From a virus (taxonomy: Duplodnaviria > Heunggongvirae > Uroviricota > Caudoviricetes), in IMG/VR virus record IMGVR_UViG_3300028532_000009: DNA of 13,497 nucleotides; one strand, given 5' to 3'. Position numbers and translations under genes: made by a program. How positions within the stretch are numbered: position 1 is the first letter of the stretch; the number at the start of each line of letters is the position of its first letter. Shown piece after piece: positions 2,665 through 8,505 of this stretch. The notes under the pieces are model-generated. The model searched no databases. It worked only from the letters and a program-made list of their open reading frames with translations, and was not told where the DNA came from.

Positions 2665-3105
2665 ATGTCTACCTATTCTTTTATGGATGTCACTGCGACG
2701 CTGACCGGGCCGACCGGTTCGATTGACCTCGGGTACGGTTCGGCAAGTTCTGAAGAGGGGATTGTGGTTGCGATGGGCGGTCCTAAAAACACCATGACCA
2801 TCGGTGCTGATGGCGAAGTGATGCACAGTCTCCATGCAGATAAAAGCGGGACGATTACCGTTAACCTTCTGAAGACATCACCGACAAATAAAAAATTGTC
2901 GCTGGCGTATAACGCACAGAGCCAGTCTTCTGCCACATGGGGGAATAACGTTATCGTGATCCGCAACAAGGTCAGCGGCGACATCATCACGGCACGCAGT
3001 GTTGCGTTTCAGAAACAACCGGATAACGCCAACGCTAAAACCGGTAATACGATGCCGTGGGTGTTTGACTGCGGCAAGATTGACCAGGTTCTCGGGGAGT
3101 TTTAA
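2665..3105 (+). CDS. Tail tube-like protein (146 aa)
   Basis: ATG 2665 preceded by AGGGGAAG (2654-2661). Small protein between the sheath-like gene and the chaperone; resembles DUF3277-type tube proteins from memory. Confidence 0.65.
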   Translation: MSTYSFMDVTATLTGPTGSIDLGYGSASSEEGIVVAMGGPKNTMTIGADGEVMHSLHADKSGTITVNLLKTSPTNKKLSLAYNAQSQSSATWGNNVIVIRNKVSGDIITARSVAFQKQPDNANAKTGNTMPWVFDCGKIDQVLGEF

Positions 3106-3108
3106 TGC

Positions 3109-3561
3109 ATGGAATTCGAAATTAAAGGCGTGAAATATCGCACGGCAAAACTCAGCGTTTTTGACCAGTTGAAAGTGACCCGCAAACTTCTGCCGGTGCT
3201 GGCAGGAATGATGTCAGATTTCGGGAGCATTCGCTCCCGTTTGCCTGCTGATGGCAAAATCGACACCGTGAAATTCGAGCAGTTAAAACCGGTGTTTGAA
3301 ACCATGCTCCCGCGTATCGCTGAGGAACTGTCTTCCCTGACCGAAGATGACACCGATGCGATTATTCATCCCTGTCTTGCGGTGGTATCGCGGCGTCATA
3401 TGGACGGATGGGTGCCAGTATTTACTCGGGGCGAACTGATGTTTGATGATATTGACCTGCTGGTCATGCTTCATCTGGTGGCGCGGGTGGTCGCCGATTC
3501 GCTGGGAAATTTTTTGCCTACACCCCTTACCAGCACGACGCAGAGCCTGCAACAGGGCTGA
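3109..3561 (+). CDS. Tail assembly chaperone (150 aa), zero-frame product
   Basis: ATG 3109 with GGGGAG (3094-3099) upstream, stop TGA 3559-3561. Lies immediately 5' of the tape measure gene and contains an in-phase slippery run followed by an open -1 frame (see next two features). Confidence 0.65.
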   Translation: MEFEIKGVKYRTAKLSVFDQLKVTRKLLPVLAGMMSDFGSIRSRLPADGKIDTVKFEQLKPVFETMLPRIAEELSSLTEDDTDAIIHPCLAVVSRRHMDGWVPVFTRGELMFDDIDLLVMLHLVARVVADSLGNFLPTPLTSTTQSLQQG

Positions 3562-3749
3562 CGTTTAACAGCCTGCCGGACGGGCTGTCCTACCTTCTCA
3601 ATCCGGTTGACGCCGGGTTAATTCCTTATACAGCACTTAAAGATGGCTCTGTCGATTTGTACGACATTGCTCTCTTGAATGACCATCTGGCGGTAAAAGC
3701 GGATAACCAGCGGCGCATTGAGAAATGGAGAGAGGATAATGAACGCTGA
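3109..3749 (+). CDS. Tail assembly chaperone, putative -1 frameshift fusion product (~213 aa)
   Basis: The -1 frame relative to the chaperone is open from 3456 to TGA 3747-3749. A slip at T_TTT_TTG (3510-3516) would append ~79 codons (FAYTPYQHDAEPATGLTFNSLPDGLSYLLNPVDAGLIPYTALKDGSVDLYDIALLNDHLAVKADNQRRIEKWREDNER) that read like genuine protein. Analogous to the lambda G/GT arrangement. Confidence 0.45.
3510..3516 (+). other. Candidate -1 ribosomal slippery heptamer T_TTT_TTG
   Basis: Six consecutive T then G, phased as X_XXY_YYZ in the chaperone frame (codons AAT 3508-3510, TTT 3511-3513, TTG 3514-3516). It lies inside the ~105-nt overlap between the zero frame and the open -1 frame. Confidence 0.4.
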
Positions 3750-5745
3750 AACTATTAAAGATTTCCTCGTCTCGCTTGGCTTCAGTGTGGATGATGCAGG
3801 AGCGAAAAAGTTCGGTTCTGTCCTCGCCGGTACAACTGCAAATGTCATCAAAATGGGGCTGGCCGTCGAAGGAACTGCACTGTCCGTGGTGGCCTTCACG
3901 GCTAAGATCGCCTCCGGTCTGGATAATCTTTACTGGGCGTCACAGCGCACCGGCGCGACGGTCCATGGAATTCAGTCTATTGGCTATGCGGTTTCGCAGG
4001 TTGGCGGCAGTGCAGACGCTGCGCGCGGGTCACTGGAGAGCCTTGCCCGTTTTATCCGTAATAGCCCCGGGGCTGAGGGATTTCTGAATCGCCTGGGCGT
4101 ACAGACCCGTGATGCCAGCGGTAACATGCGTGACATGGCTGCTATCTTTACGGGCGTTGGACAGAAACTCAGCAGCATGCCGTATTACCGGGCTAACCAG
4201 TATGCGCAGATGCTGGGCATTGACGAAAATACCCTGATGGCTATGCGTCGCGGAGTGGGGCAGTTCAGCGCTCAGTATTCAGAAATGGTGAAAGCGATCG
4301 GATTTAATGCCGATCAGGCTGCCTTATCGTCAAACCGGTTTATGACCTCGCTGAAATCGCTCGGTGAAATGGCCGGGATGGCGCGGGACAAAATCGGATC
4401 GAATCTTGCGGACGGACTGGCGGGGCAGATTGATAACCTGCGCAAAAAGATAATTGAAAATTTTCCCAAAATTGAAGTCACCATCACAAAGGTCATAAAA
4501 GGGATCCTCTGGCTGGGTGAGATAGTCGGGCGGGTTGCATTTCGGATAGTCGATGGTGTCGGAGATATCATCGAGTGGTGGGGAAAACTGGATGCCGAAA
4601 CGAAAACCCTGATAGAGGTTATCGGCGGCCTGGTTGTCGCCATGCGGATACTTAACTCTACTTTCTGGATGTCACCTATAGGGCTGATTACTGGTCTGAT
4701 CGTGGCTCTCGGTCTCTTGTGGGAAGACTACAAAACATGGAAAGAAGGCGGTAACAGCCTTATCGACTGGGAAAAATGGCAACCGGCAATAGATAAAGCG
4801 AAGGATGCGATCACCTGGTTCCGCGACAAATTACTCGAGCTGAAAGACAGCGTGGGGGGATGGCAAAAATCACTGGAAATCCTCGGTACATTCATCGCGG
4901 GTGTCTGGATATCCAAGGTTCTGGGGGCTTTCGGAAAAATATCAGGTTTGCCGGTCCCAGCCTGGCTTAAATTGTGGGCGCTTTACGCAGGTTATATTGT
5001 TAGTGACAGAGAAAATATTGCCGATAGCGCAAAATCTTCACTGAGGTATACGAAGCGAATTATCGGCGACACGCTGGCTGCTATTGGTATAAAAACAGAT
5101 ATCGGACGCAGGGATGTCAGTGAGGTCCGTGAATGGCCTGCGTGGATGGACTGGTTGCACGGGGGACCCGGTAAAGTTATCCGGCAGGGACAGAGTAACG
5201 GTGTAGTGCATGGCTCCAACGTCCAGCCCGACATCCCCGGCGGCGGTACTCTTGCTGATCGCAACAATAACCCCGGGAACATTCGCCCGGTGAGCGGTAA
5301 AGGGTTCCGGTTTTTCGAATCAGCTCTTGAGGGCTGGGAGGCGATGAAAAACCAGCTCATGCGTTACTTTACCGGGAAAACAACCGGACGAGCATTACAG
5401 ACTATTCAGGATATTGTCAGTACCTGGGCCCCGGCAGGTGATAACAACGATCCGAAAAAGTATGCACAGGATGTTGCGAAATGGATGGGAGTATCACCGA
5501 ATGCAATATTGAATCTTACAGATCCCCAGACTATGGGAGCATTGATGCAGTCGATGGCGCGCAAAGAAGGTTATTCAAACTGGAACAGCCCGCTGGCGTA
5601 TCAGGCCGCCGCTGGCAGCCTTAACCAGCAGACTGTTATAAATGTTCATGGAGTTAACAACCCTCAGGAGGCGGCTAATCTGATCGCTGACAAGCAGGGG
5701 GCTGTAAATGCCAGGGCGGTACAGCAATTGAAAGGACCTGCGTAA
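3739..5745 (+). CDS. Tail tape measure protein (668 aa)
   Basis: ATG 3739 preceded by GGAGAGAGG (3726-3734); the ORF-track start at 3718 is a TTG with no RBS. Largest gene in the cluster, located after the chaperone. Two long hydrophobic segments (about 4610-4725 and 4873-5010) and a hydrophilic C-terminal module. Confidence 0.85.
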   Translation: MNAETIKDFLVSLGFSVDDAGAKKFGSVLAGTTANVIKMGLAVEGTALSVVAFTAKIASGLDNLYWASQRTGATVHGIQSIGYAVSQVGGSADAARGSLESLARFIRNSPGAEGFLNRLGVQTRDASGNMRDMAAIFTGVGQKLSSMPYYRANQYAQMLGIDENTLMAMRRGVGQFSAQYSEMVKAIGFNADQAALSSNRFMTSLKSLGEMAGMARDKIGSNLADGLAGQIDNLRKKIIENFPKIEVTITKVIKGILWLGEIVGRVAFRIVDGVGDIIEWWGKLDAETKTLIEVIGGLVVAMRILNSTFWMSPIGLITGLIVALGLLWEDYKTWKEGGNSLIDWEKWQPAIDKAKDAITWFRDKLLELKDSVGGWQKSLEILGTFIAGVWISKVLGAFGKISGLPVPAWLKLWALYAGYIVSDRENIADSAKSSLRYTKRIIGDTLAAIGIKTDIGRRDVSEVREWPAWMDWLHGGPGKVIRQGQSNGVVHGSNVQPDIPGGGTLADRNNNPGNIRPVSGKGFRFFESALEGWEAMKNQLMRYFTGKTTGRALQTIQDIVSTWAPAGDNNDPKKYAQDVAKWMGVSPNAILNLTDPQTMGALMQSMARKEGYSNWNSPLAYQAAAGSLNQQTVINVHGVNNPQEAANLIADKQGAVNARAVQQLKGPA

Positions 5746-8067: not shown

Positions 8068-8142
8068 ATTACATTGGCGTCCAGCTTCTGCAGAACAGCA
8101 TGGATGCGCCGAAAATCATCGGTTCCTTTCCATGCAAAAAGA

Positions 8143-8170
8143 TTGTTGATTAATCACTCGTAATTATAAT
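8143..8170 (+). promoter_or_regulatory. Sigma70-like promoter for the small membrane-protein gene
   Basis: TTGTTG (8143-8148), 16-bp spacer, consensus TATAAT (8165-8170), about 37 nt upstream of ATG 8207. Short inverted repeat ATCAC (8153-8157) / GTGAT (8171-8175) brackets the -10 box and could be an operator. Confidence 0.5.
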
Positions 8171-8206
8171 GTGATACTTCTACTTTCACGATAAGGAATT
8201 TGTCAC

Positions 8207-8446
8207 ATGTTCGGATTTGATAAATTAATAACTCCAAAAATCATCAACGTTCTGTATGGCATCACAATGTTACTTCTGGTTGTTGCCGCCATTATAACGT
8301 TTGTTAATGGGAAGGCTGCTGGCGCTTTAGTGCTTTTGTTATGTGCTGTATTTTGCCGAATATTCTTTGAGTGCATCATGGTTTCATTTAAAAACAATGA
8401 GTATCTTCGCCGAATAGCTGAAGCGTTAGAAGCAAACAAGCAGTAA
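8207..8446 (+). CDS. Small two-helix inner-membrane protein (79 aa), possibly DUF4282-like; accessory (moron) gene
   Basis: ATG 8207 with AAGGA (8193-8197) upstream. Two hydrophobic helices (INVLYGITMLLLVVAAIITFV and ALVLLLCAVFCRIFFECIMVSF) and an amphipathic charged tail. The N-terminal FGFDKLITPKIINVLYGI motif matches my recollection of DUF4282 small membrane proteins (unverified). Has its own promoter and terminator and is AT-rich. Confidence 0.7.
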   Translation: MFGFDKLITPKIINVLYGITMLLLVVAAIITFVNGKAAGALVLLLCAVFCRIFFECIMVSFKNNEYLRRIAEALEANKQ

Positions 8447-8462
8447 TGAAACTTCAATAATG

Positions 8463-8487
8463 AACCCGCCACCCGGCGGGTTTTTTA
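8463..8487 (+). terminator. Rho-independent terminator
   Basis: GC stem CCCGCC (8465-8470) / GGCGGG (8475-8480) with 4-nt loop ACCC, followed by TTTTTT (8481-8486), 17 nt after the stop of the membrane-protein gene. Confidence 0.75.
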
Positions 8488-8505
8488 CTTTCTGGAGACA
8501 TATGA

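What the first reader, a model, noticed from the sequence alone, without database searches (positions are those of the whole stretch)
3456..3749. Probable programmed -1 frameshift extending the tail chaperone into the tape measure start region
The chaperone frame stops at 3559-3561, but the -1 frame is open for 98 codons from 3456 to 3749. Within the overlap there is an in-phase T_TTT_TTG (3510-3516). A slip there would append ~79 residues with plausible protein composition, ending 11 nt into the tape measure gene. A chaperone with a frameshift extension immediately 5' of the tape measure is a conserved tailed-phage arrangement (lambda G/GT), and here it appears in a contractile-tail cluster. 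A T-rich heptamer ending in G is less canonical than A_AAA_AAG, so efficiency is uncertain.
Basis: partly seen in the sequence, partly recalled or inferred. Interest (0 to 1): 0.45.

Follow-up and report, generated by a model that had tools for sequence, protein, structure and literature searches.

The report
Tail chaperone -1 frameshift, SEN34-like prophage
This E. coli prophage almost certainly makes a long and a short form of its tail assembly chaperone by a programmed -1 ribosomal slip just upstream of the tape measure gene. This is a well-known phage trick, but genome annotation pipelines miss it here and call the second part a separate gene of unknown function.

Summary

**Gene layout**
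- The chaperone (3109-3561; Pfam Phage_TAC_15) lies between the tube gene and the tape measure gene of a SEN34/Brunovirus-like contractile-tail prophage.
- The -1 frame is open from 3456 to 3749. It has no ATG or GTG and encodes Pfam DUF6889.

**Conservation in 91 dereplicated homologues (chaperone identity 46-100%)**
- 90 of 91 keep the in-phase T run at synonymous sites.
- 86 keep a -1 extension of 78-84 codons that ends at the tape measure start. Three more are cut by contig ends and two are broken by indels.
- Codon-position variability switches from the zero frame to the -1 frame exactly at the slippery stretch.

- T_TTT_TTG is not marginal. It is the established phage P2 E/E+E' slip site.
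- It is the last of three back-to-back in-phase heptamers: G_GGA_AAT, A_AAT_TTT, T_TTT_TTG (3504-3516).
- No conserved downstream RNA structure exists.

**Annotation status**
- RefSeq annotates the tail end as a separate "DUF6889 family protein" with a CTG start.
- GenBank records of Klebsiella phage Mulock (same motif) and Burkholderia phage Magia already annotate the frameshift product in this family.

**Verdict:** a real but ordinary feature, a new member of a known kind. No experiment exists for this family.

The parts
2665..3105 (+). Tail tube gene. It is context only, being the gene immediately upstream of the chaperone.
   Evidence: Pfam KPP10_Orf10 at E 9e-61. RefSeq names it a DUF3277 family protein. 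The sheath gene (DUF3383) lies at 1509-2654.
3109..3561 (+). Short chaperone form (TAC-N): the zero-frame tail assembly chaperone, 150 aa, stop TGA at 3559-3561.
3504..3516 (+). Slippery stretch GGGAAATTTTTTG. It holds three consecutive in-phase heptamers: G_GGA_AAT (3504-3510), A_AAT_TTT (3507-3513) and T_TTT_TTG (3510-3516).
   Evidence: Read from the sequence. Among 91 dereplicated homologues, 81 keep all three heptamers, 90 keep the T-run heptamer, 85 keep A_AAT_TTT and 82 keep G_GGA_AAT. Synonymous-site entropy is 0.09-0.21 bits here, against 1.33 bits at third positions upstream.
3510..3749 (+). The -1 frame extension: 79 codons plus TGA at 3747-3749. The frame itself is open from 3456. 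Joined to 3109-3510/3516 it gives a 213-aa long form (TAC-NC).
   Evidence: tblastn finds a homologous -1 peptide at the same place in nearly all homologues, E 1e-19 to 1e-48. Third-position variability follows the -1 frame from the heptamer onward. P0004 is a natural in-frame version of the fusion, caused by a T7 run.
3624..3740 (+). DUF6889 domain, the conserved C-terminal helical part of the extension.
   Evidence: Pfam PF21829 at E 2e-20, residues 57-95 of the 97-aa -1 translation. phrog_4364, unknown function. AF2 gives a disordered linker of about 25 residues followed by three helices, mean pLDDT 74.5.
3585..3749 (+). The stretch that RefSeq/PGAP annotates as a stand-alone 'DUF6889 family protein' (54 aa) with a CTG start. 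I read this as an annotation artefact of the unrecognised frameshift.
   Evidence: locus L004 6477-6641 corresponds to window 3585-3749; codon 3585 is CTG, and there is no ATG or GTG anywhere in the -1 frame between 3456 and 3749.
3739..5745 (+). Tape measure protein gene with a C-terminal lytic transglycosylase region. Its ATG overlaps the end of the extension by 11 nt. A GGAGAGAGGA Shine-Dalgarno-like run lies at 3727-3736.
   Evidence: phrog_2276 'tail length tape measure protein' at E 6e-246. RefSeq product name is 'lytic transglycosylase catalytic'.

Best explanation
This is a programmed -1 ribosomal frameshift of the lambda G/GT and P2 E/E+E' type.

**What happens**
- Most ribosomes translating the chaperone gene (3109-3561) terminate at 3559-3561 and make the 150-aa short form.
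- A minority slip back one base on the U-rich stretch GGGAAAUUUUUUG (3504-3516). The likely sites are A_AAU_UUU and/or U_UUU_UUG.
- Those ribosomes then read the -1 frame to the TGA at 3747-3749.
- The result is a 213-aa long form. It consists of the chaperone core, a disordered linker of about 25 residues, and a small three-helix DUF6889 domain.

**What the products do (inferred)**
By analogy with lambda, both forms coat the tape measure protein through the shared N-terminal domain. The C-terminal domain of the rare long form recruits the tube protein to start tail polymerisation. Neither form ends up in the virion.

**Shown versus inferred**
- Shown here: the gene layout, the slippery motifs, the lack of an independent start, the frame switch of purifying selection at the site, and wide conservation.
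- Inferred, not shown: that the shift is ribosomal, its efficiency, the exact slip codon, and the binding partners.
For: **Position and identity**
- The chaperone lies between the tube and tape measure genes.
- The fold model resembles the HK97 tail assembly chaperone.

**The -1 frame is coding**
- It is open for 97 codons, the longest such run in the window.
- It encodes Pfam DUF6889 at E 2e-20.

**No independent start**
- There is no ATG or GTG in the -1 ORF.
- PGAP has to use CTG.
- The protein database holds only 26 clusters of 43-78-aa fragments for the extension (apart from two longer chimeric calls and one weak 132-aa hit), against 718 hits for the chaperone.

**Conservation**
- 86 of 91 dereplicated homologues keep a -1 extension of 78-84 codons, and 90 of 91 keep the T-run heptamer.

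**Synonymous-site constraint**
- GGA AAT TTT TTG is almost invariant, while flanking Val, Asp and Ser codons vary.
- Entropy is 0.09-0.21 bits at the site, against 1.33 bits at third positions upstream.

**Frame switch of selection**
- Upstream of the site the most variable codon position is zero-frame position 3.
- From the heptamer onward, including the 14 codons before the zero-frame stop, it is -1-frame position 3: 1.33-1.34 bits against 0.55-0.90.

**Mapping the site**
- In L057 (GGT GAT TTT TTG) and L052 (GGT AAT TTT TTT) a -1-frame stop sits immediately before the T run. In those two the shift can only occur on the T run.

**Distant relatives**
- Phages at 27-39% chaperone identity (Bordetella, Acinetobacter, Ralstonia, Providencia, Burkholderia) keep the -1 DUF6889-like ORF ending at the tape measure start.
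- At the aligned position they carry different but canonical heptamers: C_CCT_TTT, G_GGT_TTT, A_AAT_TTT, G_GGA_AAT, T_TTT_TTT.

**Precedent**
- P2 E/E+E' shifts at TTTTTTG with no downstream structure (PMC3091744).
- The lambda G/GT mechanism is reviewed in PMC5009743.
- GenBank curators annotated the frameshift product in homologous Klebsiella phage Mulock (same 13-nt motif) and in Burkholderia phage Magia.
Against: - There is no experimental evidence for this family: no mass spectrometry, reporter assay or ribosome profiling.
- No conserved stimulatory RNA structure or upstream Shine-Dalgarno-like element was found. Efficiency may therefore be low. Lambda and P2 also lack such elements.
- In E. 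coli reporter assays codons such as UUG and AAU in the A site are weaker shifters than UUU/UUC and AAA/AAG (PMC4066793).
- The exact slip codon is unresolved.
- One homologue (L025) and a Pantoea subgroup (P0102, P0116, 'GNIL') lack the T run. L025 keeps G_GGA_AAT at the DNA level. For the two Pantoea proteins only the sequence was seen, so their heptamer is inferred from the L025 case.
- Sequence alone cannot distinguish a ribosomal slip from an RNA polymerase slip on the T6 run.
Confidence: 0.9

Rival explanations
1. Transcriptional slippage. RNA polymerase stutters on the T6 run and inserts an extra U into a fraction of mRNAs. Normal translation of those mRNAs then gives the same fusion protein (...GNFFAY...).
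For: - The site contains a homopolymer (T6).
- The DNA-level equivalent, a T7 run, does give an in-frame fusion in one public assembly.
- A different mechanism has been proposed for the chaperones of T4-like phages. I know this only from the title of Vladimirov et al. 2022, as cited in PMC12846349; the paper could not be read.
Against: - From general knowledge, six residues is short for efficient bacterial RNA polymerase slippage, which is typically seen at runs of about 8-9 or more.
- Distant homologues keep the two-frame architecture with no long homopolymer at all: CCCTTTTA in Magia and BgManors32, GGGAAATAC in Bordetella phage IFTN9, AAATTTTA in Acinetobacter phage Ab105-1phi.
- What those homologues do keep is an in-phase X_XXY_YYZ pattern, which is the requirement for tRNA re-pairing rather than for polymerase stuttering.
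- P2's identical TTTTTTG is described as a translational frameshift.
Confidence: 0.05
2. Independent small gene. The DUF6889 peptide is translated on its own from a non-canonical start (CTG at 3585, or TTG at 3657 or 3675), as the RefSeq annotation implies. No frameshift occurs.
For: - PGAP annotates a 54-aa 'DUF6889 family protein' at 3585-3749 in most of the E. coli records listed, out of 346 genomes that carry the region.
- Several phage records call a short ORF at this place.
Against: - There is no ATG or GTG in the whole -1 ORF in the window.
- 80 of 91 homologues have no ATG or GTG in the first 25 codons after the heptamer, and where starts do occur their positions are not conserved.
- The -1 peptide is conserved, and under -1-frame purifying selection, from the heptamer itself (FFARTP[YR]Q.D...). 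That is about 25 codons upstream of the PGAP start and inside the chaperone ORF.
- Upstream -1-frame stops approach the slippery stretch but never fall after it.
- No promoter-like site occurs in 3000-3900.
Confidence: 0.04
3. Chance open frame. The -1 ORF and the heptamer are coincidental and have no function.
For: In-phase X_XXY_YYZ heptamers are not rare. There are 16 in the 4174 codons of this window.
Against: - Geometric P of about 5e-4 for the open run.
- The Pfam and PHROG hits.
- Conservation across genera, with a frame-specific substitution pattern.
Confidence: 0.01

Closest known systems
Bacteriophage P2 E / E+E' tail chaperone frameshift (Christie et al. 2002; Xu, Hendrix and Duda 2004; as summarised in PMC3091744)
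   Same: - An E. coli contractile-tail phage.
- A -1 shift near the 3' end of a small gene lying between the tube and tape measure genes.
- The identical heptamer T_TTT_TTG.
- No downstream RNA structure.
- A long form that shares its N-terminus with the short form.
   Different: - No detectable sequence relationship. The chaperone hits only Pfam Phage_TAC_15, even at E up to 10.
- The proteins are larger (150 and 213 aa, against 91 and 142 aa).
- The tail module is of the SEN34 / E217 / Pam3 type (DUF3383 sheath, DUF3277 tube), not P2-like.
- Two additional in-phase heptamers directly precede the T run.
Bacteriophage lambda G / GT
   Same: - The same genome position and logic: a chaperone plus a frameshift-extended chaperone upstream of the tape measure gene.
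- The first heptamer here, G_GGA_AAT, differs from lambda's G_GGA_AAG (from my own knowledge) only in its last base.
- Presumed roles: the N domain binds the tape measure protein and the C domain binds the tail tube subunit (PMC5009743).
   Different: - Lambda has a non-contractile tail.
- There is no sequence homology.
- A final T instead of G is predicted to weaken that heptamer in E. coli (PMC4066793).
- The conserved element in this family is the T run, not GGGAAAN.
Klebsiella phage Mulock CPT_Mulock_014/015 and Burkholderia phage Magia CPT_Magia_015/016 (GenBank MN098327, MT701587)
   Same: - True homologues. The Mulock chaperone is 58.5% identical, carries the same GGGAAATTTTTTG, and has a -1 DUF6889-like extension ending at the tape measure start.
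- Both records annotate a joined 'tape measure chaperone frameshift product'.
   Different: - Those annotations are curator predictions without experiments.
- The Mulock genome announcement does not mention the frameshift.
- Magia uses C_CCT_TTT instead.
- The E. coli prophage copies and SEN34, YP3 and the vB_EcoM phages are not annotated this way.
Pakpunavirus / Vandenendeviridae chaperone -1 frameshift (Pseudomonas phage Adele, PMC12846349)
   Same: - Myophages with a related tube family.
- The downstream ORF is routinely mis-annotated as a hypothetical protein.
[quoted passage not shown]
- The argument is of the same comparative kind.
   Different: A different phage family and host. No homology test was made here between those chaperones and this one.

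Membership tests
Conserved tail assembly chaperone frameshift (lambda G/GT type, Xu et al. 2004) | Two overlapping ORFs located between the major tail/tube gene and the tape measure gene, on the same strand. | tested here: met
   Tube 2665-3105, chaperone 3109-3561, -1 ORF 3456-3749, tape measure 3739-5745.
Conserved tail assembly chaperone frameshift (lambda G/GT type, Xu et al. 2004) | [quoted passage not shown] | tested here: met
   - No ATG or GTG in the -1 ORF.
- PGAP resorts to CTG.
- No conserved start in homologues.
Conserved tail assembly chaperone frameshift (lambda G/GT type, Xu et al. 2004) | An in-phase slippery sequence in the overlap, conserved among relatives. | tested here: met
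   - Three in-phase heptamers at 3504-3516.
- The T-run heptamer is kept in 90 of 91 homologues, with synonymous-site invariance.
- Canonical heptamers lie at the aligned site in distant phages.
Conserved tail assembly chaperone frameshift (lambda G/GT type, Xu et al. 2004) | Both the short and the long protein are made, in a fixed ratio, and both are needed for tail assembly but are absent from virions. | not testable with these tools
   This needs protein analysis and genetics. None is reported for SEN34-like phages; the SEN34 paper has no mention.
Tail assembly chaperone fold (HK97 / lambda gpG-like) | Structural similarity of the N-terminal domain to solved tail assembly chaperones. | tested here: inconclusive
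   - The AF2 model has mean pLDDT 71.6.
- These scores are modest. There is no PDB relative by sequence.
Pfam Phage_TAC_15 (PF21822) and PHROG 1688 | Profile match above the curated threshold. | tested here: met
   105 bits against a cut-off of 22. phrog_1688 at E 2e-64.
Pfam DUF6889 (PF21829) | Profile match above the curated threshold in the -1 frame translation. | tested here: met
   72.6 bits against a cut-off of 23.9, residues 57-95 of the 97-aa -1 translation. The same two domains occur in the natural fusion P0004.
P2 gpE / gpE+E' protein family | Sequence homology to P2 gpE. | tested here: not met
   A Pfam scan of the fusion protein at E up to 10 returns only PF21822 and PF21829. The resemblance to P2 is in mechanism and heptamer, not in ancestry detectable by sequence.

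The most novel reading that the evidence does not exclude
The invariant 13-nt GGGAAAUUUUUUG may be a purpose-built triple slippery array rather than one heptamer with incidental neighbours.

- It would give each ribosome three successive chances to shift (G_GGA_AAU, A_AAU_UUU, U_UUU_UUG).
- This would replace an RNA stimulator and set a relatively high, robust ratio of long to short form.
- It would yield two junction isoforms: ...GNFF-AY... and ...GNFL-AY....

A corollary concerns DUF6889. It would be the tube-recruiting 'T domain' of the whole E217 / Pam3 / SEN34 class of simple myophage tails.
Probability: 0.3. Interest if true: 0.35.

Novelty: new member of a known kind. Interest (0 to 1): 0.15.

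Why it matters
**Annotation.** This is the main consequence. The region is present in 346 of 5,426 complete E. coli genomes. In most of the records listed, RefSeq shows a stand-alone 54-aa "DUF6889 family protein" with a CTG start, and some nr entries even call it "NTP pyrophosphohydrolase". The data here say DUF6889 is the C-terminal domain of a frameshifted tail assembly chaperone. That would give a function to a Pfam DUF and to PHROG 4364, and would justify a ribosomal-slippage rule for Phage_TAC_15 genes.

**Biology.** It extends the conserved G/GT logic to the SEN34 / Brunovirus-type contractile tails. It adds a clean comparative example in which the slip site can be mapped from natural variants. 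It does not change any concept.

Tried and rejected
- **Downstream stimulatory RNA structure.** The fold of 3504-3610 is no better than shuffles (z = 0.01). RNAalifold on 33 diverged homologues finds only 2 invariant pairs and no covariation. A long-range CUCCCC/GGGGA pairing appears in some Erwinia-like sequences but is not conserved.
- **Upstream Shine-Dalgarno-like stimulator.** Third-codon positions upstream vary freely, so no conserved element exists.
- **Internal promoter or terminator.** No promoter-like site was found. One weak terminator-like hairpin at 3600-3619 is no more than shuffles give.
- **Fold of the extension.** The AF2 model (pLDDT 74.5) has no PDB match by Foldseek; the best E-value is 6.6.
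- **One-piece model of the fusion.** MAFFT mis-aligned the chaperones against the DUF6889 fragments, so the two halves were modelled separately.
- **Internal duplication.** That mis-alignment suggested chaperone residues 59-101 resemble extension residues 30-73. BLASTP gives E = 0.14, which is not significant.
- **NCBIfam.** No model matches either part.
- **Literature.** No paper mentions DUF6889, PF21822, PF21829 or the PHROG ids. The SEN34 and Mulock papers do not mention a frameshift. Vladimirov et al. 2022 could not be read.
- **Independent-gene and chance-ORF readings.** Both were considered and rejected (see rivals).
Full report
**What the window is**

The 13.5-kb window is the tail module of a temperate myovirus integrated in E. 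coli. It is 100% identical over the queried stretch to E. coli strain R1 (NZ_CP031706) and about 98% identical to Escherichia phages vB_EcoM-606R2, -689R2, -611R5 and -683R1. It is 83% identical to Yersinia phage YP3 and 75% identical to Salmonella phage SEN34, the type of the genus Brunovirus. SEN34 is a viable phage with a contractile tail (PMC5261728).

The gene order is:
- neck terminator
- sheath (DUF3383, 1509-2654)
- tube (KPP10_Orf10 / DUF3277, 2665-3105)
- tail assembly chaperone (Phage_TAC_15, phrog_1688, 3109-3561)
- tape measure protein (phrog_2276, 3739-5745)
- baseplate genes (Dit-like, Pam3 gp18-like plug, E217 gp41-like hub, spike, Baseplate_J, DUF2612)
- a tail fibre gene and its assembly protein

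**Checking the observation**

- The chaperone frame stops at TGA 3559-3561.
- The -1 frame has stops at 3444, 3447 and 3453, and then none until TGA 3747-3749. That is 97 sense codons.
- The zero-frame codons across the site are CTG GGA AAT TTT TTG, so T_TTT_TTG at 3510-3516 is in phase.
- From 3510 the -1 frame has 79 codons.
- The tape measure ATG is at 3739, so the extension ends 11 nt inside that gene.

The open run is not a chance event. Within the genes of this window, -1-frame stop-free runs average 11.7 codons and never exceed 62. A geometric model gives about 5e-4 for 97 codons.

GGGAAATTTTTTG (3504-3516) reads as G_GGA_AAT, A_AAT_TTT and T_TTT_TTG, back to back.

**What the -1 frame encodes**

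The -1 translation matches Pfam DUF6889 (PF21829, 72.6 bits against a cut-off of 23.9) and phrog_4364, which has no assigned function. It contains no ATG or GTG at all. The only TTG codons, at 3657 and 3675, lie inside the conserved domain.

RefSeq nevertheless annotates a 54-aa "DUF6889 family protein" at 3585-3749, which requires a CTG start.

In a database of 5.8 billion protein clusters, the chaperone has 718 hits, with cluster sizes up to about a thousand members. The extension has only 26 clusters. Apart from two longer chimeric calls and one weak 132-aa hit, these are fragments of 43-78 aa, named "DUF6889 family protein" or, wrongly, "NTP pyrophosphohydrolase". Gene callers rarely find this ORF because it has no start of its own.

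**Comparative test**

I collected 61 loci from one-genome-per-species bacterial contigs and 80 from IMG/VR, plus annotated phage records. After dereplication there were 91 distinct loci with chaperone identity from 46% to 100%. Fifty of them are below 70%.

*The -1 extension is kept.*
- In 86 loci the -1 frame runs 78-84 codons from the slippery stretch to a stop that overlaps the tape measure start.
- Three are cut by contig ends.
- Two are disrupted: L035 is broken by a visible indel and L048 by a rearrangement. This is what decaying prophages should show.
- The -1 peptide is homologous throughout, with tblastn E from 1e-19 to 1e-48.
- It is conserved from the very first codons after the slip site (FFARTP[YR]Q.D..P..GL.L..LP.G...). 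That is well upstream of the PGAP start and still inside the chaperone ORF.

*The slippery stretch is kept at synonymous sites.*
- The T-run heptamer is present in 90 of 91 loci, A_AAT_TTT in 85 and G_GGA_AAT in 82.
- GGA AAT TTT TTG is nearly invariant, while the neighbouring Val, Ala/Gly, Asp and Ser codons use many synonymous forms.

*Selection switches frame at the site.* The figures below come from 33 sequences sharing less than 95% identity. Values are column entropy in bits at codon positions 1, 2 and 3 of the named frame.

| Region | Frame | Pos 1 | Pos 2 | Pos 3 |
|---|---|---|---|---|
| 40 codons upstream of the site | zero | 0.65 | 0.44 | 1.33 |
| The five codons L-G-N-F-L | zero | 0.19 | 0.09 | 0.21 |
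| 14 codons between the heptamer and the zero-frame stop | -1 | 0.90 | 0.77 | 1.33 |
| After the zero-frame stop | -1 | 0.66 | 0.55 | 1.34 |

Purifying selection therefore leaves the zero frame and enters the -1 frame exactly at the slippery stretch.

The chaperone model agrees with this. Its folded core ends at about residue 132, and the zero-frame tail (136-150) is disordered.

**Where the slip occurs**

Natural variants are informative.
- L057 (GGT GAT TTT TTG) and L052 (GGT AAT TTT TTT) have a -1-frame stop immediately before the T run. L056, L044 and L058 have lost the A run. In all five only the T-run heptamer is left.
- One Salmonella locus (L025, GGA AAT ATT TTG) has lost the T run and keeps only G_GGA_AAT. 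A Pantoea subgroup (P0102, P0116, "GNIL") probably does the same, although only the proteins were seen.
- Much more distant phages at 27-39% chaperone identity keep the whole architecture: a -1 ORF with a DUF6889-like domain ending at the tape measure start. At the aligned position they carry other canonical heptamers:
  - C_CCT_TTT in Burkholderia phages Magia and BgManors32
  - G_GGT_TTT and T_TTT_TTC in a Ralstonia phage
  - A_AAT_TTT in Acinetobacter phage Ab105-1phi
  - G_GGA_AAT in a Bordetella phage
  - T_TTT_TTT in a Providencia phage

The common denominator is an in-phase X_XXY_YYZ pattern, usually with a UUU codon in the A site, and not a homopolymer. This favours tRNA re-pairing on the ribosome over RNA polymerase stuttering.

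In E. coli reporter assays, X_XX.U_UU.Y motifs (including R_RR.U_UU.Y) are among the most shift-prone. "Heterogeneous" A-site codons such as UUG and AAU are weaker (PMC4066793). On those rules the middle heptamer A_AAU_UUU may contribute at least as much as U_UUU_UUG.

The two possibilities give junctions that differ by one residue: ...GNFF-AYTPY... or ...GNFL-AYTPY.... Sequence alone cannot decide between them.

**Stimulators**

None was found.
- The 107 nt from the site fold no better than shuffled sequence (z = 0.01).
- A consensus fold of 33 homologues has two invariant pairs and no covariation.
- Upstream third-codon positions vary freely, so there is no conserved Shine-Dalgarno-like element.

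This matches P2, whose E/E+E' shift occurs at TTTTTTG without a downstream structure (PMC3091744).

**The products**

The short form is 150 aa. The long form is 213 aa.

A natural in-frame version of the long form exists in one public assembly (P0004, SRR23924998). Its DNA has a T7 run, GGGAAATTTTTTTG, and its sequence reads ...SLGNFFAYTPYQHD....

The extension is modelled as a disordered linker of about 25 residues followed by three helices (27-34, 40-45, 50-77; mean pLDDT 74.5). It has no counterpart in the PDB.

The assignment of roles rests on lambda (PMC5009743), not on anything tested here. In that scheme the shared N domain sits on the tape measure protein and the C domain recruits the tube protein.

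**Comparison with what is known**

In mechanism this is the conserved tail chaperone frameshift of Xu, Hendrix and Duda (2004). It carries the very heptamer used by P2. Its first heptamer differs from lambda's G_GGA_AAG only in the last base.

By sequence it belongs to neither family. Only Phage_TAC_15 and DUF6889 are hit, even at E up to 10.

Within its own family the frameshift has already been recognised by curators. Klebsiella phage Mulock (58.5% chaperone identity, same 13-nt motif) and Burkholderia phage Magia carry joined "tape measure chaperone frameshift product" CDSs. The Mulock paper does not discuss it.

A 2025 paper makes the same comparative argument for Pakpunavirus myophages with a GTTTTT motif (PMC12846349).

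The following do not annotate it: SEN34, YP3 and the vB_EcoM phages, and most of the E. coli RefSeq records listed, out of the 346 of 5,426 complete genomes that carry the region.

**Verdict**

- Confidence that a -1 shifted chaperone-DUF6889 fusion is the functional product is about 0.9.
- The thing is ordinary: an unannotated member of a well-known kind.
- Its practical value is to correct annotation and to assign DUF6889 and PHROG 4364 as the C-terminal domain of a frameshifted tail assembly chaperone.
- The one mildly unusual feature is the invariant triple-heptamer array. Whether it acts as a unit is untested.

Noticed in passing
window 3585-3749 (L004 6477-6641): RefSeq/PGAP annotates the distal part of the -1 ORF as a stand-alone 54-aa 'DUF6889 family protein' starting at a CTG codon. 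Some nr and GenBank entries for the same fragment are named 'NTP pyrophosphohydrolase', which nothing here supports.
   Followed up: yes
L155 1895-1910 (Logan assembly SRR23924998; protein P0004): One public assembly has a T7 run instead of T6 (GGGAAATTTTTTTG). This fuses the chaperone and DUF6889 in one frame (213 aa; cluster of 16 member sequences). It could be a homopolymer sequencing error or a real mutant that makes only the long form.
   Followed up: partly
window 8207-8446, flanked by gaps 8068-8206 and 8447-8505: A small ORF (79 aa, Pfam DUF4282, with a weak YbhQ-like inner-membrane match) sits between the baseplate hub genes and the spike gene. It has untranslated gaps on both sides in an otherwise tightly packed operon, so it looks like a moron-type insertion.
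   Followed up: no
window 3739-5745, C-terminal third (residues about 488-667): The tape measure protein carries a lytic transglycosylase / endolysin-like region (phrog_873, phrog_7182; RefSeq product name 'lytic transglycosylase catalytic'). It is therefore a tape measure with a built-in cell-wall-degrading domain.
   Followed up: no
L013, L021, L030, L047 (Pantoea stewartii ATCC 8199, NZ_CP046558): One genome carries four diverged copies of this tail module (chaperone 49-71% identical to the window). Each keeps the slippery stretch and a -1 extension of 79-80 codons.
   Followed up: partly
L015 (contig labelled Chryseobacterium sp. 18061) and hit H61 (Elizabethkingia phage EKP1): Records labelled as Bacteroidota hosts carry chaperones 69% and 50% identical to this enterobacterial one. 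L015 also has the same slip motif. Mislabelling, contamination or a surprising host range are all possible.
   Followed up: no
window 3600-3619: A terminator-like hairpin (AATCCGG-TTGA-CGCCGGGTT plus a T-poor tail) lies inside the extension ORF. One site was found against 0.6 +/- 0.9 in shuffles, so it is not above chance.
   Followed up: yes
window 3283-3411 versus 3597-3728 (chaperone residues 59-101 versus extension residues 30-73): MAFFT aligned the middle of the chaperone with the DUF6889 region (L.PV...[LI]P..A......D..A[IL][IL]...LAV). BLASTP gives 29% identity and E = 0.14 for the single comparison, which is not significant.
   Followed up: yes
L136 and L012, match 3001-3451: Two homologous loci show a 1-nt length difference and lose the first 15-21 residues of the chaperone match. 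This suggests an indel near the 5' end of the chaperone gene, either a pseudogene or a sequencing error.
   Followed up: no
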